Numbered from the stretch's first letter, positions 8,067 through 62,470 are shown. The stretch: DNA of 64,000 nucleotides from a virus (IMGVR_UViG_3300002180_000002); one strand, 5' to 3'. The notes: generated by a model not told the origin, from the sequence alone. A program made the numbers and translations.

Positions 8067-8091
8067 TCATTCTCGTTTCCGTTCCGTAATT

Positions 8092-8113
8092 GTTGCCAAC
8101 TCGCAACGTATAT
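8092..8113. repeat. right inverted repeat flanking the hicBA-like cassette
   Basis: GTTGCCAACTCGCAACGTATAT. It is complementary to 7290-7307, and part of it (8098-8111) is also complementary to 8252-8265. Confidence 0.7.
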
Positions 8114-8582
8114 GCCTCGTGGATGCGCAGCATACACATAAGAGGCTATGGCTGCGCATCTATTAGGCATATACCTTGTTAGATGAGCGTTTTGTAAGCG
8201 TAGACGCAGATAATTAATTAAACAAGCACTGACCTTAGTCGATGCGTAGACATACGTTGCGAGTTAGAGGTCATTGAGCAAAAAAAGAGAAATATTAATA
8301 ATTTATAAAAAGGGTTTGTTACCAAGTGAGCATCTGTCTCCTGTTTCCTGCAACTTAGTGGCTAGACGGATAATCTATCTTGTCTTATATAAAGCGTGGG
8401 GCGTGTTCTGGTCGAATACGTCAACCGATAGACCTAACTCTAGTGTTCAGCTATGCAGCTTACCAAGTATGCGATACCTAGCCGTAGCGACCCTTTTTAT
8501 AAATTATTACTGTTTCTTTTTGCGGTGCTTGCACAATGACCTCTAACAAAAGATATAAAGCATCGTTTTAATGTGCTTTATA
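8092..8582 (+). other. GC-rich, highly structured non-coding island (candidate ncRNA or gene remnant)
   Basis: Perfect long-range complements: 8098-8111/8252-8265 (14 bp) and 8264-8276/8534-8546 (13 bp). Nested hairpin 8108-8117/8165-8174 plus 8122-8131/8151-8160. Terminal hairpin 8554-8582. Only alternative-start ORFs are present. Confidence 0.45.
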
Positions 8583-14414: not shown

Positions 14415-15266
14415 ATGACTTCATTCGCAACTACAGATAAAGAATATTATGAAGACCCTGAACATTGGGGAGAAGAAAGGTATATGACTCTTGAGAATAT
14501 TATTGATAATATTATTCTTACAGCCGATGATGATTCATTCTTTAAAAAAGCAAGCAGAAAAAGCGCTTCAATTTTTGGAAAACAATGCCTAAAGAGATTA
14601 AAAATTCACGTTATTCCTGAATACAAAGCTATTGAAGTTCAATTAGCGCCAAGCAGAACTTTTCCATACCCTAGATACATGATGAATTGGGCTAGAGTAT
14701 CTGTAGTTAATTCTTGTAAAAAACTAACCACTTTAAACGTTAATAATAGCCCTTCAATCCATAGTTATCTTCAAGATGAAACCTATGAACTTTTATATGA
14801 TGAAACAGGAACAATATTAAGAGCAGAAGACGCTAATTACTCAACAGGAGACTGTACTAAAATTTCTTTTTCTTGTGATTGCAAAGATAGTATCATATCT
14901 CCTTGCAATCAATGTGGAGATTGTCAAGATGATAGTTTTAAAGACAGTTGGGTTAAAGATAATAAAGAAGGTAGTTATTTTGAATTTAGCGAAGATTTAG
15001 TTGATGAAATCATTGTTATTGAATTTCTTTCAACAGGATTAGAAAAATTAAGTGATGCTGACGTAAGAATTCCTGATGTACTTGAACTTGCTGTTGAAAA
15101 TTGGATCAGATGTTTTTTACTTAAAGGAAAAAGAAATGTTACAAGAGCAGATTGGGGAGATTATTGGGATATGTATAAATTAGAAAGAAAAAGATGTAAG
15201 CCTTTACTTAGTAAAAAAATATCTGTAGAACAAATATTAAAATCATTATCATTAAGATATAAATAA
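14415..15266 (+). CDS. hypothetical virion-module protein with Cys cluster
   Basis: 283-aa ORF carrying CTKISFSCDCKDSIISPCNQCGDCQDD. Confidence 0.5.
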   Translation: MTSFATTDKEYYEDPEHWGEERYMTLENIIDNIILTADDDSFFKKASRKSASIFGKQCLKRLKIHVIPEYKAIEVQLAPSRTFPYPRYMMNWARVSVVNSCKKLTTLNVNNSPSIHSYLQDETYELLYDETGTILRAEDANYSTGDCTKISFSCDCKDSIISPCNQCGDCQDDSFKDSWVKDNKEGSYFEFSEDLVDEIIVIEFLSTGLEKLSDADVRIPDVLELAVENWIRCFLLKGKRNVTRADWGDYWDMYKLERKRCKPLLSKKISVEQILKSLSLRYK

Positions 15267-23018: not shown

Positions 23019-26000
23019 ATGGACGAATTAGAAAAATTATATAACGGACTTATAGAATCAGGTGATTACACAAAATCATTTGAGGATTTTAAATCAAAAT
23101 ATAGCACTGATGAAAACATAACATCGTTGTATAATGGTTTAAATAGTACAGGTGATTACACAAAATCTAAAGATGAATTTGTGAATAAATATTTTTCTAC
23201 GCCAGTAAAAAAAAAAGGAGATACTATCGAGACTTCGGGTGTGTCAGAATCGGTTGGTTCACTACCTCAAACAAAGTCAGCTTCTTCGGAATTGCCTTCA
23301 AATCAAGGAGCAAGCATTAATTCATCAACCGCACCTACGGTAGCTAATCTTAATAACGGAAAAACAAATAGTGATATTCCATTTTTTCAACCTATTCCAA
23401 AAGAACTACAAGGGGATAACAAGGAAAATATAGACCTGCTTAATGAGTTAGAAAACATAACTCTATCAGAAGATGAATTAGCAGGTATTGAAGAAGAATA
23501 TAATAAACAAAAAGGTGGGGATTTTGGTTTTTTAGGAAATATTAAAAAAGCGATCACCTCAACACCTGCTTTTGGCATAAAGAAAAATCCTTTTTTTAAC
23601 CCTAATTCTGTTACACCTAAAAGCAAAGAAGAATTAACTGAAAAACTTCTTAATGAAAAAAGAACAGAATTTATATCAAATTTAGATAAAGGTAAAAAGG
23701 AAAAGCTAACAGACCTAGTAAAGGTTAAAAATTTCCGTGCTGATTTAAAAAGAGAAAATTTAGAAGTTGAATTAGATAATATTGATGAAAATCTTTTTAA
23801 GATAAAAGAGAATGTTGAAGCTATTGATGCTGAAATATTAAGTATTGAAAATCAAAAAACAGCTTTAAAAACAAAAGTTAAAAACGAAGGTCTTACCCCT
23901 CAAGATGAAAATTCTTATAATAGTTTAATTGATGCTCAACAAAAGTTTTTAAAAGAGAGAAACAACGCAGTTGAAGGTTCTGAATCTATTTTTACAAACA
24001 GGATAGAAAAAATCAATCAGCTTGAAGATAATATTGAGAACTTAGGCTCAATGGAGCAAGAACTTGATTTATTAAAAAGAAATTACGGTTTTTTTGATAA
24101 TGTAAAAGGGAGAGCAGGAATTGGTTTTGCAGATATGTTTGCTAATGTAAAATATCAATATGACCGTCAAATTTTACGATCCAAAAGAAAAAATATTAAA
24201 AATCTTTTAGAAGCAAGAGAAAATTTATTTACTAAAGGATTAAATACATCTGCCATTGATAAGGAATTACCCGCAGAATATAGAGTTAGGACATTTCAAT
24301 ATGATTCGGAAGAATTTGATATTGAAACTGAAAATGAGTTTAATAAATTACTTTCTTCTAATTTCACAAACAAAAGAATTGTTGACGAACAAAGAGATAA
24401 ATTACGCTCAAACATTTCTGTAGATGATATTAATAGTTTCGGTGATGTAATTAACTTTACTGTAGACGGATTATCTGATAATACAGCGACTATAGCTCAA
24501 CTTGCCATTCCTTATTTCGGACAATCACTTTTTTTAATTAACCAACAGGCAGGAAGTGAATTAGATTTAAAGGGTGAGAATAAAGATAAAAAAGAACGCT
24601 TGAATGAAATCGAAAAAATTTTTGATAATGATTCAGGTAGTATTGTTAATTTTTCTGATTTAGGTGAAGAAGAACGAAATTTACTTTTAAGTGAACAAGA
24701 TCGTATTTCTAAATCTTTAGATAACTTAAATGATACTCAAATATTTTTTGCTTCAAGTTCCATGGCGATTTCTGAATTAGCTTTTAGTAGACTATTTGGT
24801 GAAGCAAAAAGAATTAAAATTGGTAAACGTATATTACAAAACGCAGGGAAAGAAGAATTAAAAAGAGAAGTAAATAGAGCTACCGTAAATATGTTTAAAG
24901 ATAGGTTGTCTTCTTTAAAAAAAGGAGGGATTGCCGTACTAAAAGATGGAGCAGAAGAAGGGTTTTTAGATGAATTCCTTACTAATTTCACTCACAATGG
25001 AATTAGAAAGTTTTATTTAGAAGATGAATCTGTGGGGCTATTTGATAACTCTATCGATGCTATAGCAGGTGGATTATCTGTGGGTACTGTTATGTCTGCT
25101 TCCCCTAGAATTGGAGGTAGTTTTATAAGTCATTTTTCAGACAGAAAAAAAAGAAACGCTGTTTATAGTAATGTTAAGGAAATCACAGAGCTTCAAAATC
25201 AATTATCTACAAATATTGATATTGACGCAGATTTAGCAGGTTTAATGCAAAATAAAATTAATAACCTTATTTCTAAAAATAAAGAAATTATAGGAAGAAC
25301 TATAGAAAGCTTTGATAATCTTGATCCAATCGATAAAGAGAGAATACTTACTATTTCTAATGAAATGGCAGGACTTGAAATTTCTTTTGATAAACTAACA
25401 AATAAAAAAAATAAAACTTCTTCTGAAAAAACCCTACTTAGTGAGATCGGCGACAGAATGAATATTCTTAATGAAGAAAAAGGACAAATATTAGATCAAC
25501 CTGTTTTTGAGTCCACTGTTTCAGAACAAACTAAGGAGTTTGCGGATGCTATTGGGGAACAAGAAGATATATCTCAATTTGTTACAGGAGCAACTAAAGT
25601 TAAGATAGGTAATACTGATGTTATATTAGGCGAAAAAGAAGGCGTTATTAATATAGAAAGTATAAGCACGCCAAAAAACCAAAGAGGTCAAGGGAGCGCT
25701 CGTAAAGCTATCCAAGAGATTACTGAATTAGCAGACGAGAAAGGTAAAGATTTGCGCTTAAATGTAGTTCCACTTGATAATACAACAACAGAGAAAGGTC
25801 TTATTAAGTTGTATGAAGAAGTAGGATTTGTTAAAGATAAAGATTTTGATAAAGATGATGGAGGGATTATGATGCGTAAGCCTGAAACTACTGATACCGA
25901 CACTAAAAAAGGTCTTGATAATATAGATACTGTTATAGATGAAGCGGAAACCTCAATAGAAAATGAAGCGATTCCTAAATTAAAAGAATCTGCTGAAAAC

Positions 26001-29000
26001 TTATCGTTTGATGAATGGAAAAATGAATCTAAAAAATGGGATGATTATACAGATAAATTAAGTGATAAGGTGCAATCCTTTGAAAAAGGAGAATTAGGAT
26101 TATCAAAAAGAACCCCTGAATTTTTAGAAGCGAAAAAAGAATTTGACAATGCTTTTCGCCAACAGCAAAAATTTAATAAATCAACTCCTAAAGGATTCGG
26201 AAGAAGAAAATTTCAAGAAAAAATAGATAAAGCAAATCAAAAAAAGAAAGAACAAAAATCAACTACTGAATTTGAAACTAATCTTAACACATATTCCGTT
26301 GAAGTTGTTAATGGAGAATTACAAATAAAATCTAAATTAGGTGATGTAAAACCTAGTGTTTCTGAAATCAAAAAAATAACTGAAAAGTATGTTTCCGAAA
26401 CTAATTTTGATAAAGGAAAAAGAGCTGATTTTTCTAAAAAAGAAAATTTATCTCCTGAACAAATATCGCAAGTTGTAGTTGAGGAAAGTCAAAATCCTCA
26501 AGAAGTAGCACAACAAATAATTTCAGTACAGGATTCAAATCAAGATTCGGAAAAAACCTTAGAAGTATCTAAACAAGGTGCTATTTCTCAAGCACTTAAT
26601 GGAGTGCAAATAAATAAAGAGAGCTTCTCTAAAGTTGACGACGCAAACAATATTTCAAGCGTAAATCCTCATTACTTTAGTCCTTTACATAAAACATTAA
26701 AAGGAAAAGCAGGAAATATTGATGCTATTAGAGAATCAGCACAAGAACTTACGGGAGAAGATATTTCACTTGAAGACATTACTAACTTCATCAAAGAATT
26801 TAATAACCCAAAAGATTTTTCACAATCAGAAACATCAAACACTTCTGACCTTGAAGATAAATTTAAAGATTTAACTGGATTAAAACCAACACCTAAAAAC
26901 ATTGAAAAAGTCGCAGGTAAGAAAACCGAATCAAAACAAAAAACAGAAGGAGAAGAAGATTCAGAAATTCCTTTCCAAACAGAAAGTACACAAACAAGAT
27001 TAGCAGGTTCAGAACTTATAAGCCTTATTGATAGATTAAAAAAGACAGGGTTAGCAAATGATGTTAAGGTTCTTAGTAACAATCAAATAATCACTCTTTT
27101 AAATAAAATAGGTGTTGAGAATACGCAACAACAAAACATTAATGGATTTGTACACGATGGAATAGTTTATCTTAATAGAAGTAAAGTTAAAAAAGACACT
27201 CCTATTCATGAATTTGGACACTTATGGAATTCTTTCGCAAAAGAAAATCATAAAGATGTTTTCAATAAAGGGATTGAGATTATAAAAGATACGGAATACC
27301 ATGAAGCTGTTAAAAATAATCCTGCATACAAAAACCTCAATGAAGAAGCACAGCTTGAGGAAGCATTAGCTCAAGCTATTGGAGAAAAAGGAGTTAAAAT
27401 ATTAAATGAATCTAAAAAAACAAAATTCGCTTCTTGGTTCAAAGCATTATTTACAAAAATCGCAAAAGGATTAGGAATCAGAAGCTTTAATGCTAATCAA
27501 TTAGCGAACCTTACTCTTGATAAATACACAAATTTAGTGAGTGGAGAAATTTTAAGTGGAAAACAAATTACCAATAAAAATAAAAAAACTGAAAAATCAC
27601 GACAAGATACTTCTGATATAACAAGTATTGAGGTTGTTATGGCAGAAGCTATTGCTTCACAGAACGCATCAAAAATATTACGCCAACAAATAAATAATAA
27701 AAAAGCTATTGACAAAGCAGTTAAAGACGCTTTAGTAAAATTTATTAGAGATCAAATCAAAAGCAAAAGATTTAATGCTTTAAAAAAAGGCGAGTTTTCT
27801 AAGATACTTACTGCTGTAAAAACTACTAAAACAAAAAATGATTTATTAAAACAACTTAAGAAAGTTGATGATCTTTTAGATCGACTAGATAGTGAAATAA
27901 TTAATGATAATATTAATAATATCCTTGACAGAAAATTAACTAAAATCGAAAGTGGTCGCCAAAAAGCTAATCTTCTTACAGAGGAAGAATCTATTATTCT
28001 TAAAACGGTTAAATCTAATATTAAAGGTCTTCAATCCACTAAAAAACCTACTCAAAAAAAATATAATGCTATAACAGAAAAATTAGCAAAACTGTTTGAT
28101 AATAGAGACGAAATACAATTAAAAACCGAGCCTAGTCGTGAAGATGTATTAAATGAAGAAGCTATTAATATCTCCATAGATGTTTTAATGGGATATAGAA
28201 GCGCTTTAAATTCTGACACAAAAAAGTTTTTACTAAGTAGTCTTGAACAAATTGAATCTATTTATAACCAAGGAAGAAGCCAATTAATTTCAGCAAAAGA
28301 AGCAAAAGCAAACGAATACAAAGATTATAGAGACGAATTAGTAGAAGACACTAATCCTGATGAATTAGTTCAGAAAAAAAGAAAAGAACAAGTTGATAGT
28401 AATCGTGAAGGTGTTAAAGCTGATTTCGCTAGACTTTATTTTAATATTACCAAAAGAAAATTAATTGGTAGTATGGACAGGCTAGCTACTGTATTATCAA
28501 GAAAAGGAGCGGGCAATCGTAATGATAGTGCGTGGGTTCAATTTACTAATTTACTAAAAAGAGCAGAAACTCTTAAAGAAAGAAGAATAGGAAGCTTATC
28601 TAAATCTATTACTAATATTCAAAAACGTTTTTTTGGAAGTAGATATAAAGCAGATAAAATGCTTAATACAAGAGAAAAACTTGATATTATTTTACCTGAC
28701 CCTACACTTGAGGAAGGTCAAGAGCCTTTAACAACACAAACCGATTTCACTTACGATGAAATGCTTTCTGTTTGGTTAAATGCTAAAAATGAAGATAATC
28801 TTTCAGGTCTTGAAGCAAATGGATTTACAGAAGACGTTATTAAAAAAATAGACGATATTCTTCCTGAATCAGTTAAAGAGTATGGTAAATGGCAAGTTGA
28901 AGAATTTTATGAAGACTCATGGGAAGATGAAAATGAAGTTTACAAACGTATGAATTTCCACACTTTACCAAAAAGTGAGAATTATGCAGGGAAATTATAT

Positions 29001-30671
29001 AGAGGTAATGTTGATTTAGATATAGACACCGAAGCCCTTAATAAAGGTAAAGGTACTCTAAGAACAACAGCTCATGGTAGTCAAAAAATCAGAACTAAGA
29101 ACTCAAAGCCTATTATGGCAGTTCCTACCACTTTTTTAATGAAAAAGCATATTACCGACACTTCTCATTATGTTGCATTTGGTGAAATACACCAAACAAT
29201 GACTAAGTTAATAGCTGATAAAAAATTAACTGATGCTATTGATGTTACTAATCCTCTTACAGGTGATCTAGCTGTTAAGTTTCTTAAATTTTATAAAGAA
29301 AGTATCTTAGAAAAAGGACTTCATAGAGGTTATCCTATAGTTAATTCGATTGCTAAGAATATAAATAAAGCTACTCTTGCATTAAAAACAAAAATTGGTA
29401 TTACCCAAACTATATCTATTTTAAATGCTTCTGTTGATATGCCAAGTGGGTTAAGCCCTAATAAGTTTTTAGGATATTATGCTGACTTCCCTAAACTTAT
29501 AGAATCTTATAAATACGTCGTTAATAATTCTGAATACATTAAAAGAAGATATGGGAAAGAAGGATTCGACCAAGCTATAACAGGTCTTTCAACACTTATT
29601 GAAACTCCTATGTTTAGTACTGGAAATAATACTGTTGACGCTAGAAGAAAGCAAATAGCTAGATTTTACAAAGAAGCACTTGATAATGCTATGATTAATG
29701 TACGTTTTGGTGATAAAGTTGGTGTAATGGGCGCATTACCAGTTTATAATGCGTACTACGATAGATACAAAAAAAGATATTCCGAAGAAGTTGCTAGAGA
29801 AAAAGCAATGAAACAATTTGAAGACGCTGTAGATAGATCACAACAAACTATATCTACTTTCGGGAAAAGTGAACTTCAAAATGACCCTATAGGAAGGTAT
29901 TTTGCCATGTTTGCAACCGCGCCTATTCAAAATCAGCAAAACGCGATGTACCACTTCAATGAAATGCGTAGAGGTATTAAGGGTAAGGGTATGAAAGGAA
30001 CTTATTTGAAAAATGCTTATGGTTTTTTAAACTACCAATTTGCACAACCTATGCTGTACACATATATTGCTAATATGATGGCAGGTAGCATATTTAAAGC
30101 ACTTGGAGCAGGAGAAGAAGAACCTGATGATACTGATAAATCTATGTTGAGTGCATTTATTTTAGGTAACACAACAGCTATTCCTTTTATTGGTGGAGCT
30201 ATGCAAGGAACGGTTGAGAAGTTTATTCTTGGAATGGATAAATCATACGGCGAAATAGTTTCCAGTGCTTTATTAAGTAATTCTTCTGAATTTATGAAGA
30301 AATTTTACGAGATTGCAGATGCAAAGTCTAAAAAAGAAGAAGTTGCTAAAACCGAAGAAATGATTCAAGAGGTTAGTAGACTTTTAATTGGGTTTCCTAC
30401 CATCGTTTCAGAAGCTATTTTTGATTGGGATGATATTTACTGGAATGATGATGTAGATAATTGGGTGAAATTCTATAAAGCACTAGGATATAGTGATTAT
30501 ACTATTGTTAAATCTCGAAGACAAAGAAAAACGAGAGTGCAAAGTGATAAATTGAAAGAAGCTGAAAAAAGAGAATGGGAAAATTCTATAATTCGATGGG
30601 AAAAACAGAATAAACAGAAAAAAACAGAGCCACTTTTTAAGTTGCTCCCTGAACAGAAAAAACGGAAATAA
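23019..30671 (+). CDS. giant multidomain virion protein (2550 aa) with internal GNAT-like segment and HExxH motif
   Basis: Uninterrupted 7.65-kb ORF. Contains QRGQGSARK...LYEEVGFV (about 25567-25885), HEFGH (27207-27221), long coiled-coil-like K/E-rich stretches, and hydrophobic segments near the C-terminus. Confidence 0.6.
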   Translation: MDELEKLYNGLIESGDYTKSFEDFKSKYSTDENITSLYNGLNSTGDYTKSKDEFVNKYFSTPVKKKGDTIETSGVSESVGSLPQTKSASSELPSNQGASINSSTAPTVANLNNGKTNSDIPFFQPIPKELQGDNKENIDLLNELENITLSEDELAGIEEEYNKQKGGDFGFLGNIKKAITSTPAFGIKKNPFFNPNSVTPKSKEELTEKLLNEKRTEFISNLDKGKKEKLTDLVKVKNFRADLKRENLEVELDNIDENLFKIKENVEAIDAEILSIENQKTALKTKVKNEGLTPQDENSYNSLIDAQQKFLKERNNAVEGSESIFTNRIEKINQLEDNIENLGSMEQELDLLKRNYGFFDNVKGRAGIGFADMFANVKYQYDRQILRSKRKNIKNLLEARENLFTKGLNTSAIDKELPAEYRVRTFQYDSEEFDIETENEFNKLLSSNFTNKRIVDEQRDKLRSNISVDDINSFGDVINFTVDGLSDNTATIAQLAIPYFGQSLFLINQQAGSELDLKGENKDKKERLNEIEKIFDNDSGSIVNFSDLGEEERNLLLSEQDRISKSLDNLNDTQIFFASSSMAISELAFSRLFGEAKRIKIGKRILQNAGKEELKREVNRATVNMFKDRLSSLKKGGIAVLKDGAEEGFLDEFLTNFTHNGIRKFYLEDESVGLFDNSIDAIAGGLSVGTVMSASPRIGGSFISHFSDRKKRNAVYSNVKEITELQNQLSTNIDIDADLAGLMQNKINNLISKNKEIIGRTIESFDNLDPIDKERILTISNEMAGLEISFDKLTNKKNKTSSEKTLLSEIGDRMNILNEEKGQILDQPVFESTVSEQTKEFADAIGEQEDISQFVTGATKVKIGNTDVILGEKEGVINIESISTPKNQRGQGSARKAIQEITELADEKGKDLRLNVVPLDNTTTEKGLIKLYEEVGFVKDKDFDKDDGGIMMRKPETTDTDTKKGLDNIDTVIDEAETSIENEAIPKLKESAENLSFDEWKNESKKWDDYTDKLSDKVQSFEKGELGLSKRTPEFLEAKKEFDNAFRQQQKFNKSTPKGFGRRKFQEKIDKANQKKKEQKSTTEFETNLNTYSVEVVNGELQIKSKLGDVKPSVSEIKKITEKYVSETNFDKGKRADFSKKENLSPEQISQVVVEESQNPQEVAQQIISVQDSNQDSEKTLEVSKQGAISQALNGVQINKESFSKVDDANNISSVNPHYFSPLHKTLKGKAGNIDAIRESAQELTGEDISLEDITNFIKEFNNPKDFSQSETSNTSDLEDKFKDLTGLKPTPKNIEKVAGKKTESKQKTEGEEDSEIPFQTESTQTRLAGSELISLIDRLKKTGLANDVKVLSNNQIITLLNKIGVENTQQQNINGFVHDGIVYLNRSKVKKDTPIHEFGHLWNSFAKENHKDVFNKGIEIIKDTEYHEAVKNNPAYKNLNEEAQLEEALAQAIGEKGVKILNESKKTKFASWFKALFTKIAKGLGIRSFNANQLANLTLDKYTNLVSGEILSGKQITNKNKKTEKSRQDTSDITSIEVVMAEAIASQNASKILRQQINNKKAIDKAVKDALVKFIRDQIKSKRFNALKKGEFSKILTAVKTTKTKNDLLKQLKKVDDLLDRLDSEIINDNINNILDRKLTKIESGRQKANLLTEEESIILKTVKSNIKGLQSTKKPTQKKYNAITEKLAKLFDNRDEIQLKTEPSREDVLNEEAINISIDVLMGYRSALNSDTKKFLLSSLEQIESIYNQGRSQLISAKEAKANEYKDYRDELVEDTNPDELVQKKRKEQVDSNREGVKADFARLYFNITKRKLIGSMDRLATVLSRKGAGNRNDSAWVQFTNLLKRAETLKERRIGSLSKSITNIQKRFFGSRYKADKMLNTREKLDIILPDPTLEEGQEPLTTQTDFTYDEMLSVWLNAKNEDNLSGLEANGFTEDVIKKIDDILPESVKEYGKWQVEEFYEDSWEDENEVYKRMNFHTLPKSENYAGKLYRGNVDLDIDTEALNKGKGTLRTTAHGSQKIRTKNSKPIMAVPTTFLMKKHITDTSHYVAFGEIHQTMTKLIADKKLTDAIDVTNPLTGDLAVKFLKFYKESILEKGLHRGYPIVNSIAKNINKATLALKTKIGITQTISILNASVDMPSGLSPNKFLGYYADFPKLIESYKYVVNNSEYIKRRYGKEGFDQAITGLSTLIETPMFSTGNNTVDARRKQIARFYKEALDNAMINVRFGDKVGVMGALPVYNAYYDRYKKRYSEEVAREKAMKQFEDAVDRSQQTISTFGKSELQNDPIGRYFAMFATAPIQNQQNAMYHFNEMRRGIKGKGMKGTYLKNAYGFLNYQFAQPMLYTYIANMMAGSIFKALGAGEEEPDDTDKSMLSAFILGNTTAIPFIGGAMQGTVEKFILGMDKSYGEIVSSALLSNSSEFMKKFYEIADAKSKKEEVAKTEEMIQEVSRLLIGFPTIVSEAIFDWDDIYWNDDVDNWVKFYKALGYSDYTIVKSRRQRKTRVQSDKLKEAEKREWENSIIRWEKQNKQKKTEPLFKLLPEQKKRK

Positions 30672-51486: not shown

Positions 51487-52248
51487 ATGGAAAAAACAAA
51501 ACCAGTAGATTCTAAAATAGAATCAAAAAGAACAATTATCAAGAATATTCTTGAAGAAGGTGGTGATGCCGAGCAAGTTCATGTAACTTGGCTTGAAGGA
51601 AGCGCCCCTGAACAGCATAATGATAAGCCTGTAGATATTTCAGGTACAATATCTGCTCCAAGATTATTCTTAGAAAAAAGAGTAGGTGAATTCTACCCGA
51701 AAACCGCTCATTGTCTTGTGTCAAGAACTGATGGTAAAATGGTGGTGGTAATTAACGAACAAACCGTTTGTGAAAAATACACTATCACAGGTCAAGTAGA
51801 AGTTGGTAAAAAATTCAAAGAATTAAATATCAATAACTTTGCTAACGGTATTGAACCTCTTAACCTTGTAAAAAAATTAAGACTTAGAAGGTCTATTTTT
51901 AAATCAAACACGGATCACACTAATTTGTTAGCTGTTCTTTCAAGTGTGGAAGCTAAAATTGATAAAGAAATGCAGGAGAATAAAGATGATAGAGCAAATC
52001 ATACTTTCAGACACCAACAAACTGTTACCAGTAATATTCCTAAATCATTTAATTTAAGAATTCCTATTATCGAAGGTGAAGAACCTGTTGATATTGAAGT
52101 TCAGGTTCTTTTAGAATTAGAGGGTGGGCGTATTATGTGCTACCTTGAAAGTGTAGATGGTGCTGACCTTATCGAAACTGCTTTTGAAACATTAGTTGAC
52201 AAAGAAGTTGAAGAAATCAAAGAGAAAGTAACGGTGCTATACCGATAA
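51487..52248 (+). CDS. hypothetical protein
   Basis: 253-aa ORF. Confidence 0.5.
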   Translation: MEKTKPVDSKIESKRTIIKNILEEGGDAEQVHVTWLEGSAPEQHNDKPVDISGTISAPRLFLEKRVGEFYPKTAHCLVSRTDGKMVVVINEQTVCEKYTITGQVEVGKKFKELNINNFANGIEPLNLVKKLRLRRSIFKSNTDHTNLLAVLSSVEAKIDKEMQENKDDRANHTFRHQQTVTSNIPKSFNLRIPIIEGEEPVDIEVQVLLELEGGRIMCYLESVDGADLIETAFETLVDKEVEEIKEKVTVLYR

Positions 52249-52256: not shown

Positions 52257-52481
52257 TCGTTGGACGCGCATTGGGGCGCTAAGCTTATCGGGTGAGAAGG
52301 GATAGGGTAAAAGATTGAGATACACAAGTCAGATAAATAACCGACACTCAATACTATCCAATAAAATTGATGAAAATGTATGTAAATACGAACGATTATC
52401 CTTACTAAGCATTTGAAAAAATGATAGAGTGCTGACTAACATCAATTATAGTTCACGGGGGTTCGACTCCCCCTCAACGGT
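52257..52481 (+). ncRNA. tRNA-like-domain RNA lacking an anticodon arm (about 225 nt)
   Basis: Acceptor TCGTTGG/TCAACGG, D-like arm GCGC-ATTGGG-GCGC, and T arm GGGGG-TTCGACT-CCCCC. A nested-helix insert of about 175 nt lies between the D and T arms. The RNA sits in a 247-nt gap between CDSs. Confidence 0.5.
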
Positions 52482-52495: not shown

Positions 52496-52780
52496 TTGAA
52501 AACACAACCGCAGATTGACGCAGAGGTGATAAATTACATTACTTCTCTTTATAAGATATTTGGTAAACTTGAAAATTTTAACGGAAGTTGTTACAAGTTT
52601 TCCGTTCATTTAATAAAGCAATTTTCAGGAGAAATGTATTCTAATTCTTGGCATATAATTACAAAGATTGGAAATAATTATTTTGATTCAAATGGAAAAG
52701 TTGACAATATAAACGGATATATATCCGAAAAAGAATTCGGAGAAGATTATTTCATTAACGCATTTAAAGAATACTTATGA
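52496..52780 (+). CDS. hypothetical protein (possible mini Cys-His-Asp papain/transglutaminase-like fold)
   Basis: 94-aa ORF with a TTG start. GSCYKF...WHIITKI...FDSNG spacing is suggestive only. Confidence 0.35.
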   Translation: MKTQPQIDAEVINYITSLYKIFGKLENFNGSCYKFSVHLIKQFSGEMYSNSWHIITKIGNNYFDSNGKVDNINGYISEKEFGEDYFINAFKEYL

Positions 52781-53061
52781 AAACAAAATTTTATTTAAAC
52801 GTAAGAGAAAACGGGAGCGCTAGAGTAACTAAAAATAAAGTTGCACTACATATTGACGAAGTAAGTATTGGAATGGAAATAGAACTTCCTGATACATTAT
52901 TTCAAAAACCAATCATTAATCGAAAAATTACCGTAACAGAAGACATGGTTTCGCCCAACACATTAAATGCTGATGTTAAAGAAAATATCGAAAATGCTCT
53001 TAAAGGTGTTCATGGAGTTAAAATAGAACTAACAATGCCAAAAGAAGATGATAATGGATAA
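52777..53061 (+). CDS. hypothetical protein
   Basis: 94-aa ORF with an ATGA overlap. Confidence 0.45.
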   Translation: MKTKFYLNVRENGSARVTKNKVALHIDEVSIGMEIELPDTLFQKPIINRKITVTEDMVSPNTLNADVKENIENALKGVHGVKIELTMPKEDDNG

Positions 53062-53680
53062 GCCTACTAATAATTTTAATTTAATTCGCCCTTTGCTAGA
53101 CTTTAAGTTAAATGATGAATTTTATTTCATTCAAGTTTTGCAAAGAAAAAAAGATGCAAAAGAAGGTCAGAAAGTAAATGGAACAAATAATAATTCTCGT
53201 TTAATTAAAGCTTATTATGTAAATTCTATAGAATATTTAGATTTTATAGAAAAAGAAATCATTCAACTTTGTGAAATATTTAATGCTAGAGCAGGAATTA
53301 ACTTAAATAAACGTTCATTTGAAAAGACTGCTTTACAGCATTTAAAACTTGTTACAGATAATCTTATTAATAAGAATTATGATAAAATTTATAAATCATA
53401 TTCATCTGCTGTCGGCAAATTTTCACATGATAAAAACAAAAAATGGATAATTGATATAGATTCAGAAGAAATTCATTTATTAGAGAGAATAAAAACCTGC
53501 ATAAATTTAATAGAACCTATTAATGATTTAATTCCTAATAAAGTTTTTTGCGAAATTCCTTCAAAAACAGGAATTCATTTAATTACAAGCCCTTTTAATT
53601 TACAAATATTTAAAATGAACTTCCCAAGTATAGATATTCAAAAAAACAATCCAACAAATCTATATATTCCAAAATTATGA
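53048..53680 (+). CDS. hypothetical protein with AEP primase-polymerase-like motif spacing
   Basis: WIIDIDSEE (DxD), SKTGIHLI (sG.H) and SIDIQ (hD) occur in the order and spacing of AEP motifs I-III. Weak evidence. Confidence 0.35.
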   Translation: MIMDKPTNNFNLIRPLLDFKLNDEFYFIQVLQRKKDAKEGQKVNGTNNNSRLIKAYYVNSIEYLDFIEKEIIQLCEIFNARAGINLNKRSFEKTALQHLKLVTDNLINKNYDKIYKSYSSAVGKFSHDKNKKWIIDIDSEEIHLLERIKTCINLIEPINDLIPNKVFCEIPSKTGIHLITSPFNLQIFKMNFPSIDIQKNNPTNLYIPKL

Positions 53681-54123
53681 AAACAACTATAATCGTAGAT
53701 ATAGACGGTACTATATCAAAAGTAGGAGATAGATTAAAATATCTTCAACAAGACCCTAAAAATTGGGATGATTTCTACAACGCTTGTTTTGAAGACGAGC
53801 CAATGGATGATATTATTAAATTGCTAGAACAATTTATAAATCATTACCATATCATTTTTTGCACAGGAAGACGTGAAAGTGTTAGAGAGCAAACCCAAGA
53901 ATGGATAATGAAGCACTTAGGGATTAGAACTCATAAAGGAAATTTGTTGATGCGTCCAGATGGAGATTTTAGACACGATATTGCTGTTAAACCTGAACAA
54001 TTAGAAAAGGCAGGGATAAAGCTTGATGAAATTCTTTTCGTTTTAGAAGATAGAAGAAGTATGGTTCAGCAATGGAGAGAAATAGGATTAACTTGTTTGC
54101 AGGTAGCCGACGGAGATTTTTAG
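53677..54123 (+). CDS. HAD-superfamily phosphatase
   Basis: IIVDIDGTIS (DxDGT motif I), FCTGRRE (motif II) and VLEDR. Confidence 0.65.
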   Translation: MKTTIIVDIDGTISKVGDRLKYLQQDPKNWDDFYNACFEDEPMDDIIKLLEQFINHYHIIFCTGRRESVREQTQEWIMKHLGIRTHKGNLLMRPDGDFRHDIAVKPEQLEKAGIKLDEILFVLEDRRSMVQQWREIGLTCLQVADGDF

Positions 54124-54126
54124 ACT

Positions 54127-54621
54127 ATGGCATATATAATTGAAGATACATTGTTAGATATGGAGCGGGCAAATGAGATGCTTAAAATTCCTGCTGTTGG
54201 ATATGATTTCATAACTTCTCTTTGTAGTAAATTTATTGGATCAGGAATACATAGAAACGTTTTTGAATATTCCTTAGACGACAAGTATGTTATAAAAGTT
54301 GAGCCAAACAATACAAATCAGAATACAATAGAGTGGATGATTTGGAATGAGGTTCAATATTTAACTGGCGACATGGAATGGGTAAAAGATTGGTTTGCTC
54401 CTGTAAAGTGGATTTCTCCAAACGGAAGACTTTTGGTTATGAAAAAAACCATTGAGAAACCTCACTTTGATAGACCTGAAAAAGTTCCTGATTTCCTTTG
54501 GGATGTTAAGGTAGATAATTTTGGATGGATTGGGAAAAATCTTGTCTGCCATGATTACGGACAATTTTACAATATGATTCACTATTCAAAAAAAATGAAG
54601 AAAGTAGAATGGATTTTTTAA
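54127..54621 (+). CDS. minimal protein-kinase-like fold protein (164 aa)
   Basis: GSGIHRNVF (Gly loop), YVIKVE (Lys), LWDVKVDNFGW (D-x-K-x-x-N) and CHDYG (DFG-like), in canonical order. Confidence 0.5.
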   Translation: MAYIIEDTLLDMERANEMLKIPAVGYDFITSLCSKFIGSGIHRNVFEYSLDDKYVIKVEPNNTNQNTIEWMIWNEVQYLTGDMEWVKDWFAPVKWISPNGRLLVMKKTIEKPHFDRPEKVPDFLWDVKVDNFGWIGKNLVCHDYGQFYNMIHYSKKMKKVEWIF

Positions 54622-54632
54622 AAATATAGATT

Positions 54633-55340
54633 ATGACTACAGCTAAAAAAGCATTTACAATTTTAGTAAATAAAAAAGAATACGATGTTTGGAACATCCC
54701 AAATAAAAAACATAAAGCACTTAACGGAGAAGTTGATACTTGGTGGCTTTATTATTCTGATAGTCTTCCCGAAGGCACATTACCTCCTTTAGATTCAGAA
54801 CATTGGTTAGCTTACCATGTTAGTATGAAGCGTAATATGTGGGATGTATTAATTGAGAGTTATCAAACTACTAAAATTAAATGGGATGATTATCATTTCC
54901 GAAATGGATATAGAGTTAAATTGCTTTGTGATAAAAAGTTAATTCATTCTTTTTCAACTCACAATATTGAATTTGCAATGAGTAAAGCGCAATATCTTAT
55001 GATTGTGCTACCTGAACATCCTTTTAATTTCTTAGATCAAGATTCAGAAAAAAATCGTAAAATTTATTATTACGGTATGCCTGCGCTAGTTGACCCAAAA
55101 AGGAACGGCGAAATCGGAATAATCCCTGACTATACTACTATTAAAAAAGTAGATTGGTGGAAAGAATATTACAGGCGACAAAGAACTGCTGATGGTCTTA
55201 TAGATAAAGAATGGGAACATAATTTTCAGGAACGCTTTGAAGAAGACAGTGATTACATTAATTGGGGCGACGCTCTTTCTGATGGTAATATCGATTGGTT
55301 TAGGAGTTTAAAAGAATCTGATAATTTAAAAAAGAAGTAA
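54633..55340 (+). CDS. hypothetical protein
   Basis: 235-aa ORF. Confidence 0.5.
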   Translation: MTTAKKAFTILVNKKEYDVWNIPNKKHKALNGEVDTWWLYYSDSLPEGTLPPLDSEHWLAYHVSMKRNMWDVLIESYQTTKIKWDDYHFRNGYRVKLLCDKKLIHSFSTHNIEFAMSKAQYLMIVLPEHPFNFLDQDSEKNRKIYYYGMPALVDPKRNGEIGIIPDYTTIKKVDWWKEYYRRQRTADGLIDKEWEHNFQERFEEDSDYINWGDALSDGNIDWFRSLKESDNLKKK

Positions 55341-55341
55341 G

Positions 55342-55944
55342 ATGAAAAAAACAAGAATATCTAAAAAGAAATTACAATCGTTTATTGATTCAATCGCAAA
55401 TGTTGTTGATACAGATAAGGAAGGCTTGGAAGATGCACTACAATCTTATGTATCAAAAGTTGACGGGTCTTATTTAACATTTGTAGGATTAGAAGAAAAT
55501 TTAAAATTTCTATTAAGAAAAGGAATTACTGAACAGGTAACTAACTTGCTTGGTTTTAATCCAGTAGAACAAAAATGGTATGGCAGAAGTCATAGGGCTA
55601 TATTTGGTTTCGGAATTGGAAGCACTTGTAAAAAAGATAATAGTGGTTATAGACCTTCTAATAAGGAAGATTATATTGAATCATGTAGAGTATTTTATGG
55701 TGATTTAGATATGGAAAAAACAGGTAAAGATAAGGTTACAGCTACCGAAACAATTCAAGATGGTACAACAGGGGTTTCAGTTGCTTGGATTTATAAGAAA
55801 GATCATCCTAATGAAAAATTACGAGGAACAATAGGAACAGCATTTTCACCATATCCTAAAACTTGGGGTAAGGGTGAATGGACAGCAACCACTTTAGAGG
55901 AAGCTAAAGAAATGGCATTAGATTTTGCCGAAAGCGTATCATAA
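55342..55944 (+). CDS. hypothetical protein
   Basis: 200-aa ORF. Confidence 0.5.
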   Translation: MKKTRISKKKLQSFIDSIANVVDTDKEGLEDALQSYVSKVDGSYLTFVGLEENLKFLLRKGITEQVTNLLGFNPVEQKWYGRSHRAIFGFGIGSTCKKDNSGYRPSNKEDYIESCRVFYGDLDMEKTGKDKVTATETIQDGTTGVSVAWIYKKDHPNEKLRGTIGTAFSPYPKTWGKGEWTATTLEEAKEMALDFAESVS

Positions 55945-57893: not shown

Positions 57894-57991
57894 CCTAAAA
57901 AAATGCACCGCGAAACAGGATAACGTCAAGGTAATTTAAACCTATCTAATAAACTGTATGACGGTGCATACCATTATTTCTATCTTACTAG

Positions 57992-58063
57992 AAGCGAGAA
58001 AGGGAATCGAACCCTTGCATAGCGGTTTTGCAGACCGCCGTGTTTCCACTTCACCATTTCGCC
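57992..58063 (-). tRNA. tRNA-Cys (anticodon GCA)
   Basis: Reverse complement: GGCGAAA-TG-GTGAAGTGGAAACAC-G-GCGGT-CTGCAAA-ACCGC-TATGC-AAGGG-TTCGATT-CCCTT-TCTCGCT-T. It forms a cloverleaf with discriminator U73. The acceptor stem has one A:C mismatch and one G:U pair. Confidence 0.7.
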
Positions 58064-60310: not shown

Positions 60311-60592
60311 ATGACATTTACAAACAAACTTAGATTATTATTTTTAGTAGTGATTCTTTTCGGCTTCACTTATTCAGCAACGGCGCAAGAACCTGCGTAC
60401 AAAATTGTAGGCAGTGAGATAGTTAAGACCTCAACGGAGCGCGTGAAGGTTGCGCCAGTGAAGACAGAATACACTCATACGATTAAGGGTGTAGTTTATC
60501 CAGTGTACAAAGGTGCGAAGGGTGGCTACTTCATTAAGCGCGTGAGCAAGAAGACGGGCAAGGAATACAAGCAGTATTTAAAACTCGACTAA
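60311..60592 (+). CDS. secreted basic hypothetical protein
   Basis: Signal peptide MTFTNKLRLLFLVVILFGFTYSATAQ. Confidence 0.5.
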   Translation: MTFTNKLRLLFLVVILFGFTYSATAQEPAYKIVGSEIVKTSTERVKVAPVKTEYTHTIKGVVYPVYKGAKGGYFIKRVSKKTGKEYKQYLKLD

Positions 60593-60594
60593 GC

Positions 60595-60654
60595 GAGGTT
60601 AAACAGGCATTAGGCTTAGAGCGTCCGCACTACTTTGGTGCGGGGTTGTAACAA
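60595..60654 (+). promoter_or_regulatory. intergenic repeated hairpin element, copy 1
   Basis: TTAAACAGGCATTAGGC...AGCGT-CCGCAC-TACTTTG-GTGCGG-GGTTGTAACAA, ending 17 nt before the next ATG. Confidence 0.55.
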
Positions 60655-60865: not shown

Positions 60866-61162
60866 ATGAAAGTAAACGCTATAACAAAATATATCTTTAA
60901 AGGTAAAGAGTATAATTCCTTACAAGAGATAAAAGAAGAAATACATAATACTATTGGTTTAGAAGTATTGGATAAAGTTTCTAAAACTTGCCCACTTGAA
61001 AAACACAAAGACTATTTTAAATTATTAGAATTATTGTGTAGTAAAGAAGTCAGAGAAATTTTAACAGAATGTTTTAACGTAAATTTTGACGAACCTATTA
61101 CAGATTATGACGATAATTGTTTCAATGAAAACACTAAAGAAATTAATGTTTTAGATATATAA
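60866..61162 (+). CDS. hypothetical protein
   Basis: 98-aa ORF preceded by a 9-bp-stem hairpin (60795-60803/60835-60843). Confidence 0.45.
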   Translation: MKVNAITKYIFKGKEYNSLQEIKEEIHNTIGLEVLDKVSKTCPLEKHKDYFKLLELLCSKEVREILTECFNVNFDEPITDYDDNCFNENTKEINVLDI

Positions 61163-61176
61163 GTCGGTCGGGCGAC

Positions 61177-61240
61177 ATTAAACAGGCATTAAGCCCGAAG
61201 CGTTGCGGACGATTTCTCCCTAGTCCGCAGGTTGTAACAA
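61177..61240 (+). promoter_or_regulatory. intergenic repeated hairpin element, copy 2
   Basis: ATTAAACAGGCATTAAGC...AGCGT-TGCGGAC-...-GTCCGCA-GGTTGTAACAA, ending 19 nt before the ATG at 61260. Confidence 0.55.
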
Positions 61241-62389: not shown

Positions 62390-62410
62390 TTGAAAGAGGT
62401 TGCGACCTCT

Positions 62411-62470
62411 TAAAAAAGGTTATTAAGTCGCAAGCGTTCCCGCTCATATTGGGCGGGAGGTTAACAACAA
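62411..62470 (+). promoter_or_regulatory. intergenic repeated hairpin element, copy 3 (diverged)
   Basis: AAAAAGGTTATTAAGTC...AGCGT-TCCCGC-...-GCGGGA-GGTTAACAACAA, ending 12 nt before the ATG at 62483. Confidence 0.5.

What the first reader, a model, noticed from the sequence alone, without database searches (positions are those of the whole stretch)
52257..52481. 225-nt RNA with tRNA-like acceptor, D and T arms but no anticodon arm
Seen in sequence:
- TCGTTGG (52257-52263) pairs with TCAACGG (52474-52480), giving 5 Watson-Crick and 2 G:U pairs.
- GCGC-ATTGGG-GCGC (52266-52279) is a D-arm-like hairpin with GG in the loop.
- GGGGG-TTCGACT-CCCCC (52457-52473) is a canonical T arm. Its T loop is identical to that of the tmRNA-like gene at 1494-1510.
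- I could not draw any 5-7-5 anticodon arm. The interior instead forms nested helices: GGATAG/CTATCC (52300-05/52354-59), ATTGAG/CTCAAT (52314-19/52347-52) and ATTGATG/CATCAAT (52366-72/52440-46).
- The last helix encloses a 10-codon frame, ATG TAT GTA AAT ACG AAC GAT TAT CCT TAC TAA (52376-52408, MYVNTNDYPY). Its N-x-N-D-Y core recalls tmRNA tags, but the ALAA-type end is missing and position 3:70 is G-C rather than G:U.

Inference: candidates are a divergent tmRNA-like RNA, a tRNA mimic or decoy (Y-RNA-like), or an intron-containing tRNA. The insert looks too short for a group I intron.
Basis: partly seen in the sequence, partly recalled or inferred. Interest (0 to 1): 0.7.

Follow-up and report, generated by a model that had tools for sequence, protein, structure and literature searches.

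The report
tRNA-Leu-derived phage RNA, giant variable arm
This phage gene encodes a leucine-tRNA-shaped RNA that can no longer read codons; its side arm has grown into a conserved, knotted fold of about 150 bases, a previously undescribed RNA family found in at least 13 uncultured phages.

Summary
Window 52257-52481 (+) has a 7-bp acceptor stem, a D arm, a canonical T arm and no usable anticodon arm.

I found 12 further distinct homologues in metagenomic phage contigs. Across the 13 sequences, 99.6% of helix cells pair and 24 of 41 pairs show compensatory changes.

The comparison revises the anatomy:
- The frame derives from a type-II tRNA-Leu.
- Its anticodon arm is a degenerate stub with no consistent anticodon.
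- Its long variable arm has expanded into a 125-156 nt three-way junction.
- That junction is locked by a 6-bp pseudoknot (AGUCAG with CUGACU) that itself covaries.

It is not a group I intron. It reaches no gathering score in Rfam 15, and I found no description in the literature.

One lineage lacks the T arm and acceptor. It keeps the domain inside an array of 24 tRNAs, a tmRNA and a GOLLD RNA.

Best reading: the tRNA frame serves for processing and stability, and the variable-arm domain is the working part, acting in trans. Its partner is unknown.

The parts
52257..52263 (+). Acceptor stem, 5' strand (UCGUUGG)
   Evidence: Pairs with 52474-80. All 7 pairs show compensatory changes across the family.
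52266..52279 (+). D arm (GCGC-AUUGGG-GCGC). In most members it reads UGGCGGAAUUGGUAGACGC, the tRNA-Leu type.
   Evidence: Two D-stem pairs covary, G-C to A-U and C-G to U-A. The consensus 5' half scores best against tRNA-Leu genes among 43 phage tRNAs. blastn hits fall on annotated phage tRNA-Leu genes.
52281..52295 (+). H1, a degenerate remnant of the anticodon arm (AAGCUUAUCGGGUGA; loop consensus YUAWCGG)
   Evidence: It occupies the anticodon-arm position. Across members the stem is 2-5 bp and the loop 3-8 nt, read directly from the sequences. With the domain removed, ARAGORN assigns cgg, atc, ata, tat or ggg, or 2- and 4-nt 'anticodons'.
52296..52298 (+). PA 5' strand (GAA), the base of the variable-arm stem that closes the inserted domain
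   Evidence: Pairs with UUC at 52452-54. It covaries: GAC/GUC (L063), GAU/AUC (L254), GCG or GCA/UGC (L054, L146), GAA/UUU (L192).
52300..52359 (+). P2, a long two-part hairpin. P2a is 52300-05/52354-59 and P2b is 52314-19/52347-52. The apical loop is 52320-46.
   Evidence: 6 of the 8 counted pairs have compensatory changes, and 99% of cells pair. RNAalifold recovers P2a independently on a plain MAFFT alignment.
52327..52332 (+). Pseudoknot 5' strand (AGUCAG), in the P2 apical loop
   Evidence: Pairs with CUGACU at 52432-37. Variants are AGUCGG/CCGACU (L146), AGUCUA/UAGACU (L254), AGUCAU/GUGACU (L192) and GGUCAG/CUGACU (L136). All 13 sequences pair at all 6 positions.
52366..52372 (+). P3 5' strand (AUUGAUG)
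   Evidence: Pairs with CAUCAAU at 52440-46. The outer pair takes five types (A-U, C-G, G-C, U-A, G-U). The inner six pairs never vary.
52373..52400 (+). J3/4, an A/U-rich joining strand (consensus AAAAUAUUAAC-NNNNRUC). It includes the window-only hairpin GUAU-GUAA-AUAC at 52378-89.
Evidence: Invariant in all other members.
52401..52429 (+). P4 hairpin (CUU...GAG), with an inner hairpin CAUUU-GAAA-AAAUG at 52410-23
   Evidence: P4 covaries: CUC/GAG, CCAC/GUGG, CUAC/GUAG, CCGC/GCGG, CGU/GCG. It is capped by UUCG in L043 and L136. The inner hairpin covaries to UUCCU-GAAA-AGGAA in L003.
52432..52437 (+). Pseudoknot 3' strand (CUGACU), in J4/3
   Evidence: See the pseudoknot 5' strand.
52440..52446 (+). 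P3 3' strand (CAUCAAU)
52452..52454 (+). PA 3' strand (UUC), 2 nt before the T stem, the position of a type-II variable arm
52457..52473 (+). T arm (GGGGG-UUCGACU-CCCCC)
   Evidence: Local Rfam hit to the tmRNA T arm. 3 of 5 stem pairs have compensatory changes.
52474..52481 (+). Acceptor 3' strand (UCAACGG) and discriminator U73. No CCA is encoded.
   Evidence: Of the 11 members where it can be read, the discriminator is A in 7, U in 2, C in 1 and G in 1 (table; sequences).

Best explanation
This is a gene for a stable, non-coding, non-decoding RNA derived from a type-II tRNA (tRNA-Leu).

Shown:
- It keeps the acceptor stem, a Leu-type D arm and the T arm.
- Its anticodon arm has decayed into a short, variable hairpin with no consistent anticodon.
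- Its long variable arm has been expanded into a 125-156 nt domain (153 nt here).
- That domain is a three-way junction. Helix PA closes it, and it carries the two-part hairpin P2 and helix P3, which encloses hairpin P4.
- A 6-bp pseudoknot between the P2 apical loop and the strand joining P4 to P3 locks the fold.

Inferred mechanism:
- The gene lies 8 nt after the stop codon of the upstream ORF. I found no promoter or terminator of its own, so it is probably transcribed within the phage's early or accessory operon.
- The tRNA frame would let host RNase P cut the 5' end at 52257. RNase Z or exonucleases plus the CCA-adding enzyme would finish the 3' end at 52481. The frame would also give a nuclease-resistant L-shaped body.
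- The strongly conserved variable-arm domain is the working part. It acts in trans by binding a conserved partner (protein, RNA or small molecule), or possibly by catalysis.

In short, this is nature's version of the laboratory 'tRNA scaffold'. The partner is unknown. The neighbourhood (Tad6, YunG-like; an Acb2/Tad1-like gene at the same locus in a relative) suggests host takeover or counter-defence.

On confidence: that this is a real, structured, tRNA-Leu-derived, non-decoding RNA family I hold at about 0.9. The figure of 0.5 given for this explanation applies to the scaffold-plus-trans-acting-domain mechanism.
For: Family and structure
- 13 distinct members were found by pattern scans and by following a flanking gene.
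- RNAalifold on an unedited MAFFT alignment recovers the acceptor, D, P2a, P3 and T helices. 18 of its 31 pairs have compensatory changes.
- The full model, pseudoknot included, gives 99.6% paired cells, against 80.4% when shuffled and 36-43% when slid. 24 of 41 pairs have compensatory changes, and 0 of 500 shuffles reach that.

tRNA frame
- The Rfam tRNA model spans the whole of L043 (26.9 bits, E = 8e-4) with 140 nt in place of the 17-nt anticodon arm.
- With the domain replaced by UUCG, ARAGORN calls a tRNA in 7 of 11 members, and in all 11 at a relaxed threshold. The anticodons are inconsistent or irregular.
- The 5' half matches tRNA-Leu best.

The domain as the functional unit
- The domain is about 90% identical between the window and L003, while the acceptor, D and T stems have diverged with compensation.
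- In L192, L218 and L253 the T arm and acceptor are gone, replaced by a plain 9-bp stem. The domain is intact there and sits 6 nt upstream of tRNA-Gln, in an array of 24 tRNAs, a tmRNA and a GOLLD RNA. Flanking tRNA processing would release it.

Processing from a longer transcript
- No promoter or terminator signal above chance flanks it on the + strand.
- It has the same orientation as the flanking ORFs in every locus examined.

Accessory character
- It is present at this locus in the window and L003. It is absent from the same locus in L002, L004, L005 and L009-L011.
Against: - No experiment or transcript data exist. Transcription, processing, CCA addition and stability are all inferred.
- The partner or activity of the domain is entirely unknown.
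- Neighbouring genes differ between member phages, so context gives no consistent functional link.
- A73, the LeuRS identity element, is kept in 7 of 11 readable members. The elbow nucleotides are also kept. This could mean the tRNA part does more than serve as a scaffold.
- The helix strands in alignment A4 were extracted by hand to fit the model, so its pair statistics lean towards the model.
- The scaffold-less variant is a single lineage (three near-identical contigs) and could be a decaying copy.
Confidence: 0.5

Rival explanations
1. It is an aminoacylated translation effector that works like tmRNA. The tRNA-Leu-like part is charged by LeuRS, which does not read the anticodon. The charged RNA is then used on stalled ribosomes, or by a non-ribosomal aminoacyl-transferase, with the big domain acting as the specificity module.
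For: - The frame derives from tRNA-Leu. Bacterial LeuRS recognises A73 and the tRNA core, not the anticodon (established knowledge).
- A73 is present in 7 of 11 readable members (table).
- The acceptor, T arm and G18G19-type D loop are kept under selection.
- The family co-occurs with phage tmRNAs in the window and in L192.
Against: - The discriminator is U in the window and L003, C in L054 and G in L146.
- L192 has no acceptor or T arm at all, yet keeps the domain.
- There is no conserved reading frame.
- No member has G3:U70 (pair 3).
- The window contains only one copy of the domain core motif.
Confidence: 0.13
2. It is a decoy or sponge directed against host immunity or a host tRNA-handling enzyme. 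The tRNA-shaped body lures a tRNA-targeting effector (an anticodon nuclease, a CCA-modifying toxin and the like). Alternatively, the domain soaks up a defence protein or signalling molecule.
For: - It lies in a variable accessory locus next to known counter-defence genes: Tad6 at 55342-55944, and an Acb2/Tad1-like gene at the equivalent locus in L002.
- Among close relatives the RNA is present in some and absent in others, as expected for an accessory gene.
- Phage tRNAs and RNA antitoxin mimics are known counter-defence tools (established knowledge).
Against: - The degenerate anticodon loop varies in length and sequence, so it cannot mimic one specific anticodon-nuclease target.
- Neighbours are not conserved across member phages.
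- No aptamer or antitoxin family matches.
- The idea overlaps with, rather than excludes, the best explanation.
Confidence: 0.2
3. It is an intron-containing tRNA gene. The insert is a self-splicing or protein-spliced intron, and its removal yields a working tRNA.
For: - Bacterial tRNA-Leu(UAA) genes are the classic home of group I introns (established knowledge).
- The window has GACUA...UAUAGUU, which resembles a group I P7.
- GNRA loops are present.
Against: - There is no Rfam group I or group II hit, even at E = 10.
- The P7-like pairing is not conserved: the 3' element reads UAUAAUU, UAUGUUU or CAUAUGC in other members.
- There is no conserved terminal G and no conserved U.G at a 5' splice site.
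- With the insert removed, the anticodon arm is irregular and the anticodon differs in every member.
- The insert is in the variable arm, not the anticodon loop.
- GACU is shown by covariation to pair with the P2 loop instead.
Confidence: 0.03
4. It is a cis-acting processing signal, a form of tRNA punctuation. Its only job is to have RNase P and RNase Z cut the polycistronic mRNA between the two flanking genes. The domain then protects or regulates the new mRNA ends.
For: - The element is packed tightly between co-oriented ORFs, with no promoter or terminator of its own.
- The same phage carries three Pistol self-cleaving ribozymes between small genes, so it does process its transcripts.
Against: - A plain tRNA would do that job. 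A 150-nt domain whose sequence is nearly invariant across unrelated gene contexts is not explained.
- Flanking genes differ in every member.
Confidence: 0.08

Closest known systems
Type-II tRNA-Leu (long-variable-arm tRNA)
   Same: - It has a 7-bp acceptor stem, U8 and G9.
- The 3-bp D stem and its loop read GGCGGAAUUGGUAGACGC.
- The T arm has the UUCRANU loop.
- A73 is present in most members.
- An extra arm emerges 2 nt before the T stem.
- With the domain trimmed, ARAGORN accepts it as a tRNA.
   Different: - The anticodon arm is degenerate and has no consistent anticodon.
- The variable arm is 125-156 nt instead of about 13-20 nt, and it is a pseudoknotted three-way junction.
- The Rfam tRNA score is below the gathering threshold or absent.
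tmRNA (including the permuted tmRNA in this same window)
   Same: - It is a tRNA-derived RNA with an acceptor stem and T arm and a large structured, pseudoknot-containing insertion.
- It is carried by phages alongside tRNAs.
- Its T loop is identical to that of the window's tmRNA.
   Different: - The insertion is in the variable arm, not in place of the anticodon arm.
- It has a real D stem.
- It lacks G3:U70, a conserved tag frame and a resume codon.
- Neither tmRNA models nor ARAGORN recognise it.
Engineered tRNA scaffolds for expressing recombinant RNAs (Ponchon and Dardel approach; cited from my own knowledge)
   Same: The logic is the same. A foreign structured RNA is grafted into a tRNA body so that tRNA-processing enzymes trim it and the L-shape stabilises it.
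   Different: - This one is natural rather than engineered.
- The graft is in the variable arm rather than the anticodon stem.
- Its function in vivo is unknown.
GOLLD and ROOL, large structured phage RNAs associated with tRNAs
   Same: - They are phage-borne, of unknown function and ornate.
- They lie in or beside tRNA arrays. The GOLLD RNA in L192 even contains a tRNA, and it shares one array with the scaffold-less variant.
   Different: - This RNA is much smaller, with a domain of about 150 nt against 400-800 nt.
- No sequence or model match was found.
- Here the RNA is built into the tRNA fold itself.
Bacterial Y-RNA-like YrlA
   Same: It contains a tRNA-mimicking module (D-arm and T-arm mimicry) and does not decode.
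   Different: - In YrlA the RNA ends form the Ro/Rsr-binding stem and the tRNA-like part is internal.
- Here the ends form the acceptor stem.
- No Rfam hit was found.

Membership tests
tRNA (Rfam RF00005 / ARAGORN) | 7-bp acceptor stem with an unpaired discriminator | tested here: met
   52257-63 pairs with 52474-80, with U73 unpaired. All 7 pairs covary.
tRNA (Rfam RF00005 / ARAGORN) | D arm with GG in the loop, and a T arm with a UUCRANY loop | tested here: met
   Exceptions: the window has A8 instead of U8 and a short 6-nt D loop, and L038 has an 8-nt T loop.
tRNA (Rfam RF00005 / ARAGORN) | A 5-7-5 anticodon arm with U33 and an anticodon that is conserved among orthologues | tested here: not met
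   H1 has a 2-5 bp stem and a 3-8 nt loop. On the trimmed sequences ARAGORN gives cgg, atc, ata, tat or ggg, or 2- and 4-nt anticodons.
tRNA (Rfam RF00005 / ARAGORN) | Score at or above the curated threshold on the native sequence | tested here: not met
   The window gives no tRNA hit even at E = 10. L043 scores 26.9 bits against a gathering score of 29. ARAGORN finds nothing.
tmRNA | A G3:U70 alanine identity pair in the acceptor stem | tested here: not met
   Pair 3 is G-C in 7 members, U-A in 2 and C-G in 2. It is never G:U.
tmRNA | A conserved tag reading frame with a resume codon and an in-frame stop | tested here: not met
The other members differ in frame and stop position.
tmRNA | Recognition by the tmRNA covariance models or ARAGORN | tested here: not met
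   The only hit is an 18-bit local match to the T arm, against a gathering score of 47. ARAGORN finds none.
Group I intron in a tRNA gene | A P3-P8 catalytic core with a conserved P7 G-binding helix, a terminal G, and U.G at the 5' splice site | tested here: not met
   There is no RF00028 hit at E = 10. The P7-like pairing is not conserved, and its 5' strand pairs elsewhere according to covariation.
Group I intron in a tRNA gene | Exons that join into a functional tRNA | tested here: not met
   the anticodon arms are inconsistent or irregular once the insert is removed.
Box C/D sRNA (raised by weak snoRNA hits) | Box C (RUGAUGA) and box D (CUGA) forming a kink-turn closed by a terminal stem | tested here: not met
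   UGAUGA and CUGA are both present. However, UUGAUG pairs with CAUCAA (P3) and CUGACU pairs with the P2 loop. The 'box D' changes to UAGA, CCGA or GUGA together with its pseudoknot partner.
Any described RNA family (Rfam 15) | A match to one of 4227 covariance models | tested here: not met
   Gathering-threshold scans of the window and of 12 member loci (all distinct members but the window), plus permissive scans of three members, were run. None explains the domain.
Aminoacylatable tRNA-Leu mimic | An A73 discriminator together with the Leu-type core | tested here: inconclusive
   A73 occurs in 7 of 11 readable members. The window has U73. Charging cannot be tested with these tools.

The most novel reading that the evidence does not exclude
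This would be the first natural 'tRNA-scaffolded' functional RNA. The 150-nt pseudoknotted variable-arm domain would be a new class of ribozyme, aptamer or protein-binding RNA. Phages would deliver it in a tRNA-Leu body, possibly as an RNA-based counter-defence or host-takeover factor, and possibly exploiting LeuRS, EF-Tu or other tRNA-binding machinery for targeting.
Probability: 0.3. Interest if true: 0.88.

Novelty: new variant of a known kind. Interest (0 to 1): 0.72.

Why it matters
tRNA-derived RNAs with new jobs are rare and have been biologically rich; tmRNA and the Y-RNA-like YrlA are the main examples.

This family matters for three reasons:
- It shows a third route. A type-II tRNA's variable arm, which points away from every surface used by processing enzymes, is used as the insertion point for a whole new folded domain.
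- The secondary structure is unusually well supported, pseudoknot included, and the RNA is small (about 200 nt). It is therefore directly suitable for in vitro processing, probing, cryo-EM or crystallography, and pull-downs.
- It joins GOLLD, ROOL and phage tmRNAs as function-unknown RNAs travelling with phage tRNA genes. It may help explain why phages keep such RNAs.

For annotation, it flags a class of loci that tRNA finders skip and ORF callers may mis-call. In L054 a 75-codon ORF overlaps the RNA.

Tried and rejected
- **Close relatives in cultured phages.** megablast and blastn of the locus and of two other members against GenBank phages gave no full-length match. Only the first 25-30 nt hit tRNA-Leu genes.
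- **First scans.** The first protein-based locus search and the first exact-pattern scans of IMG/VR found nothing or only chance matches.
- **Group I intron.** I considered this seriously because GACUAA-CAUCAAU-UAUAGUU resembles P7/P3'/P7'. I rejected it once more members showed that the 3' element varies without compensation, and that GACU pairs with the P2 loop.
- **Anticodon arm.** I tried reading H1 as a real anticodon arm, for example a Pro CGG loop AUCGGGU, or Leu CUUAA. I rejected this because the register, loop length and 'anticodon' differ between members.
- **Coding or tag frame.** Rejected.
- **Box C/D kink-turn.** Rejected.
- **Hammerhead-like UGAUGA and other small ribozymes.** No Rfam support.
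- **Conserved neighbour gene.** None is shared. A nucleotidyltransferase-like motif in the L029 neighbour could not be confirmed by Pfam or PDB sequence search. A PHROG scan of neighbours failed on a coordinate error.
- **rRNA resemblance.** A recalled resemblance of AAGUCAGGUAA to stretches of 16S rRNA or RNase P RNA was not tested and is not used.
- **Literature.** Five literature searches found no description of such an RNA.
- **Single-sequence folding.** It is uninformative: z-scores are -0.6 to -1.2 and L043 misfolds.

Full report
**1.

Window 52257-52481 (+) lies in a 247-nt gap. Upstream is a 253-aa ORF (51487-52248, PHROG 11501, DUF2303-like). Downstream is a YunG-like ORF (52496-52780).

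The T loop UUCGACU is identical to that of the permuted tmRNA at 1461-1670, whose T arm is at 1494-1510.

ARAGORN and Rfam at gathering thresholds report nothing here. A permissive Rfam scan finds only the T arm, as an 18-bit local match to the tmRNA model.

The single sequence does not fold better than shuffles (z = -0.75). On its own it could not be told from chance.

**2. Finding relatives**

GenBank phages hold nothing similar. The window is an AT-rich (about 30% GC) crAss-like phage:
- One ORF has the crAss muzzle-protein C-terminal domain.
- The flanking protein has relatives in Flavobacterium, Cellulophaga and Bacteroides phages.

I followed homologues of the upstream protein into their contigs. 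This gave one locus, L003, with the same RNA at the same place. Other relatives (L002, L004, L005, L007-L011) lack it, so the RNA behaves as an accessory gene.

Between the window and L003 the interior is about 90% identical. The acceptor, D and T stems differ with compensation.

Exact-pattern scans built on the invariant blocks then recovered more members:
- L025 and L029 from metagenomes.
- L036, L038, L043, L054, L063, L136, L146, L192 (identical to L218 and L253) and L254 from IMG/VR.

That makes 13 distinct sequences.

**3. Anatomy from comparison**

RNAalifold on an unedited MAFFT alignment of ten members recovers the acceptor stem, D stem, P2a, P3 and T stem. 18 of its 31 pairs have compensatory changes.

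Reading the sequences side by side gave the rest of the model:

- **Hairpin H1.** After the D arm and one nucleotide comes a short, poorly conserved hairpin, at 52281-95 here.
- **Helix PA.** Next comes a 3-bp helix, GAA at 52296-98 with UUC at 52452-54. It closes everything up to 2 nt before the T stem. PA covaries: GAC/GUC, GAU/AUC, GCG or GCA/UGC, GAA/UUU.
- **Inside PA.** There are two elements:
  - A two-part hairpin P2, made of P2a and P2b, both rich in covariation.
  - A helix P3, which encloses an invariant A/U-rich strand, a hairpin P4 and the strand UGCUGACUAA. P4 is capped by UUCG in two members and extended by an extra hairpin in four.
- **Pseudoknot.** The P2 apical loop carries an invariant AGUCAG that is complementary to CUGACU in that strand. 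Three members change both sides together: AGUCGG/CCGACU, AGUCUA/UAGACU and AGUCAU/GUGACU. One changes A-U to G-U.

I made a digest alignment from the hand-extracted helix strands joined by constant linkers (A4). On it:

| Measure | Observed | Control |
|---|---|---|
| Cells paired | 99.6% | 80.4% shuffled; 36-43% slid |
| Pairs with compensatory change | 24 of 41 | 0 of 500 shuffles reach this |

Because I extracted the strands to fit the model, they lean towards it. The agreement and the pseudoknot double changes are the independent support.

**4. What the frame is**

A helix that emerges 2 nt before the T stem, after an arm in the anticodon position, is the geometry of a type-II (long-variable-arm) tRNA.

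- The consensus 5' half UGGCGGAAUUGGUAGACGCU scores best against tRNA-Leu genes among 43 tRNAs of a phage tRNA array. The top seven scores are all Leu.
- blastn of the members hits annotated phage tRNA-Leu genes with their first 25-30 nt.
- The Rfam tRNA model spans the whole of L043 at 26.9 bits (gathering score 29), with 140 nt in place of the anticodon arm.
- When I replace the 125-156 nt domain by a UUCG loop, ARAGORN calls a tRNA in 7 of 11 members at default settings and in all 11 at a relaxed threshold. The 'anticodons' are cgg, atc, ata, tat and ggg, or irregular 2- and 4-nt ones.

So the frame is a tRNA-Leu derivative that has lost decoding. The insert is an overgrown variable arm, not a replacement of the anticodon arm.

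**5. What it is not**

- **Not coding or tmRNA-like.**
  - Elsewhere indels shift the frame.
  - No member has G3:U70.
- **Not a group I intron.**
  - There is no model hit at E = 10.
  - The P7-like element is not conserved, and its partner strand is used by the pseudoknot.
  - There is no conserved terminal G.
  - The exons do not make a usable tRNA.
- **Not a box C/D RNA.** It contains UGAUGA and CUGA, but the pairing shown by covariation is different.
- **Not in Rfam 15.**
- **Not found in the literature.** Five full-text searches found no description.

**6. The informative variant**

In L192, L218 and L253 (contigs of 42-175 kb) the domain, H1 and a vestigial D-like hairpin are intact. 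There is no T arm, and the acceptor is replaced by a plain 9-bp stem.

This copy lies about 33 nt after tRNA-Arg and 6 nt before tRNA-Gln. The array holds 24 tRNAs, a tmRNA and a GOLLD RNA. Here the flanking tRNAs, rather than a built-in tRNA frame, would provide the processing sites.

Two further points agree with this. The domain is better conserved than the frame. The discriminator also varies (A in 7 of 11, U in the window). Together these point to the domain as the functional unit and to the tRNA body as a processing and stability scaffold.

**7. Mechanism**

Shown:
- The fold.
- The tRNA-Leu origin.
- The loss of a consistent anticodon.
- The lack of a conserved reading frame.
- The accessory distribution.
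- The tight, co-oriented packing between ORFs with no promoter or terminator signal above chance.

Inferred:
- The RNA is cut from a longer transcript by RNase P and RNase Z, and receives CCA.
- It persists as an L-shaped RNA and works in trans through the variable-arm domain.

The partner is unknown. The neighbourhood contains counter-defence genes: Tad6 here, and an Acb2/Tad1-like gene at the same locus in L002. A counter-defence or host-takeover role is therefore a reasonable guess, but no more than that.

Rivals, in order of my confidence:
1. A defence decoy or sponge.
2. A Leu-charged effector that works like tmRNA.
3. A cis-acting processing signal.
4. An intron, which I regard as nearly excluded.

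**8. Verdict**

This is a real and well-supported new family of phage RNAs. It is a tRNA-Leu derivative with a giant pseudoknotted variable arm.

- It works like a natural tRNA scaffold.
- It is not a member of the tRNA (decoding), tmRNA, group I intron, Y RNA or C/D families by their defining features.
- Its function remains to be found.

Noticed in passing
window 1461-1670 (+): A permuted (two-piece) tmRNA gene (Rfam RF04321, 52.1 bits against a gathering score of 47) in what looks like a crAss-like phage. ARAGORN did not call it.
   Followed up: partly
window 60583-60650, 61162-61236, 62395-62465 (+): Three Pistol self-cleaving ribozymes (54-70 bits). Each lies in a short gap between small co-oriented ORFs, which suggests ribozyme-based cutting of a polycistronic transcript.
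   Followed up: no
window 57991-58063 (-): A tRNA-Cys(GCA) gene, the only conventional tRNA in the window. It is on the opposite strand to most genes.
   Followed up: no
window 15266-19504 (+); also 23019-30671 (+): The 1412-aa ORF carries the crAss muzzle-protein C-terminal domain (PF25729). A 2550-aa ORF follows. The window is therefore probably a marine, flavobacterial crAss-like phage.
   Followed up: partly
window 52496-55944 (+); L002 5102-5413: An accessory, counter-defence neighbourhood: a YunG-like gene, a PNKP-type HAD phosphatase (53677-54123) and Tad6 (55342-55944). In relative L002 the equivalent locus carries an Acb2/Tad1-like gene instead of the RNA.
   Followed up: partly
L192 1-9775 (IMGVR_UViG_3300023240_001391): One array holds 24 tRNAs, a tmRNA (5476-5873), a GOLLD RNA (7898-8381, with a tRNA inside it at 7971-8043), and the variant of this RNA that lacks the T arm (1870-2045).
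   Followed up: partly
L029 4721-5659 (-): The 312-aa protein immediately downstream of the L029 copy has a GGSxxxxLLGxxxxDxD motif. It recalls the heads of CCA-adding enzymes and poly(A) polymerases, but there is no Pfam or PDB sequence hit. Unverified.
   Followed up: partly
L146 383-590 (-); L054 1714-1917 (+): In this subgroup the acceptor stem can be extended to 9 bp (L146, followed by an encoded CCA) or 8 bp (L054). PA is also longer (GAUGCA/UGCAAC; CAUGCG/UGCAAG). In L054 a 75-codon ORF overlaps the RNA and could be mis-annotated as a gene.
   Followed up: no
L046 about 13907-14130 (+): A chance hit of one scan pattern is followed by a T-arm-plus-acceptor-like 3' end (GCAGGTTCGACTCCTGCCACGTCCA). 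No Rfam family reached its gathering score there. It was not examined further.
   Followed up: no
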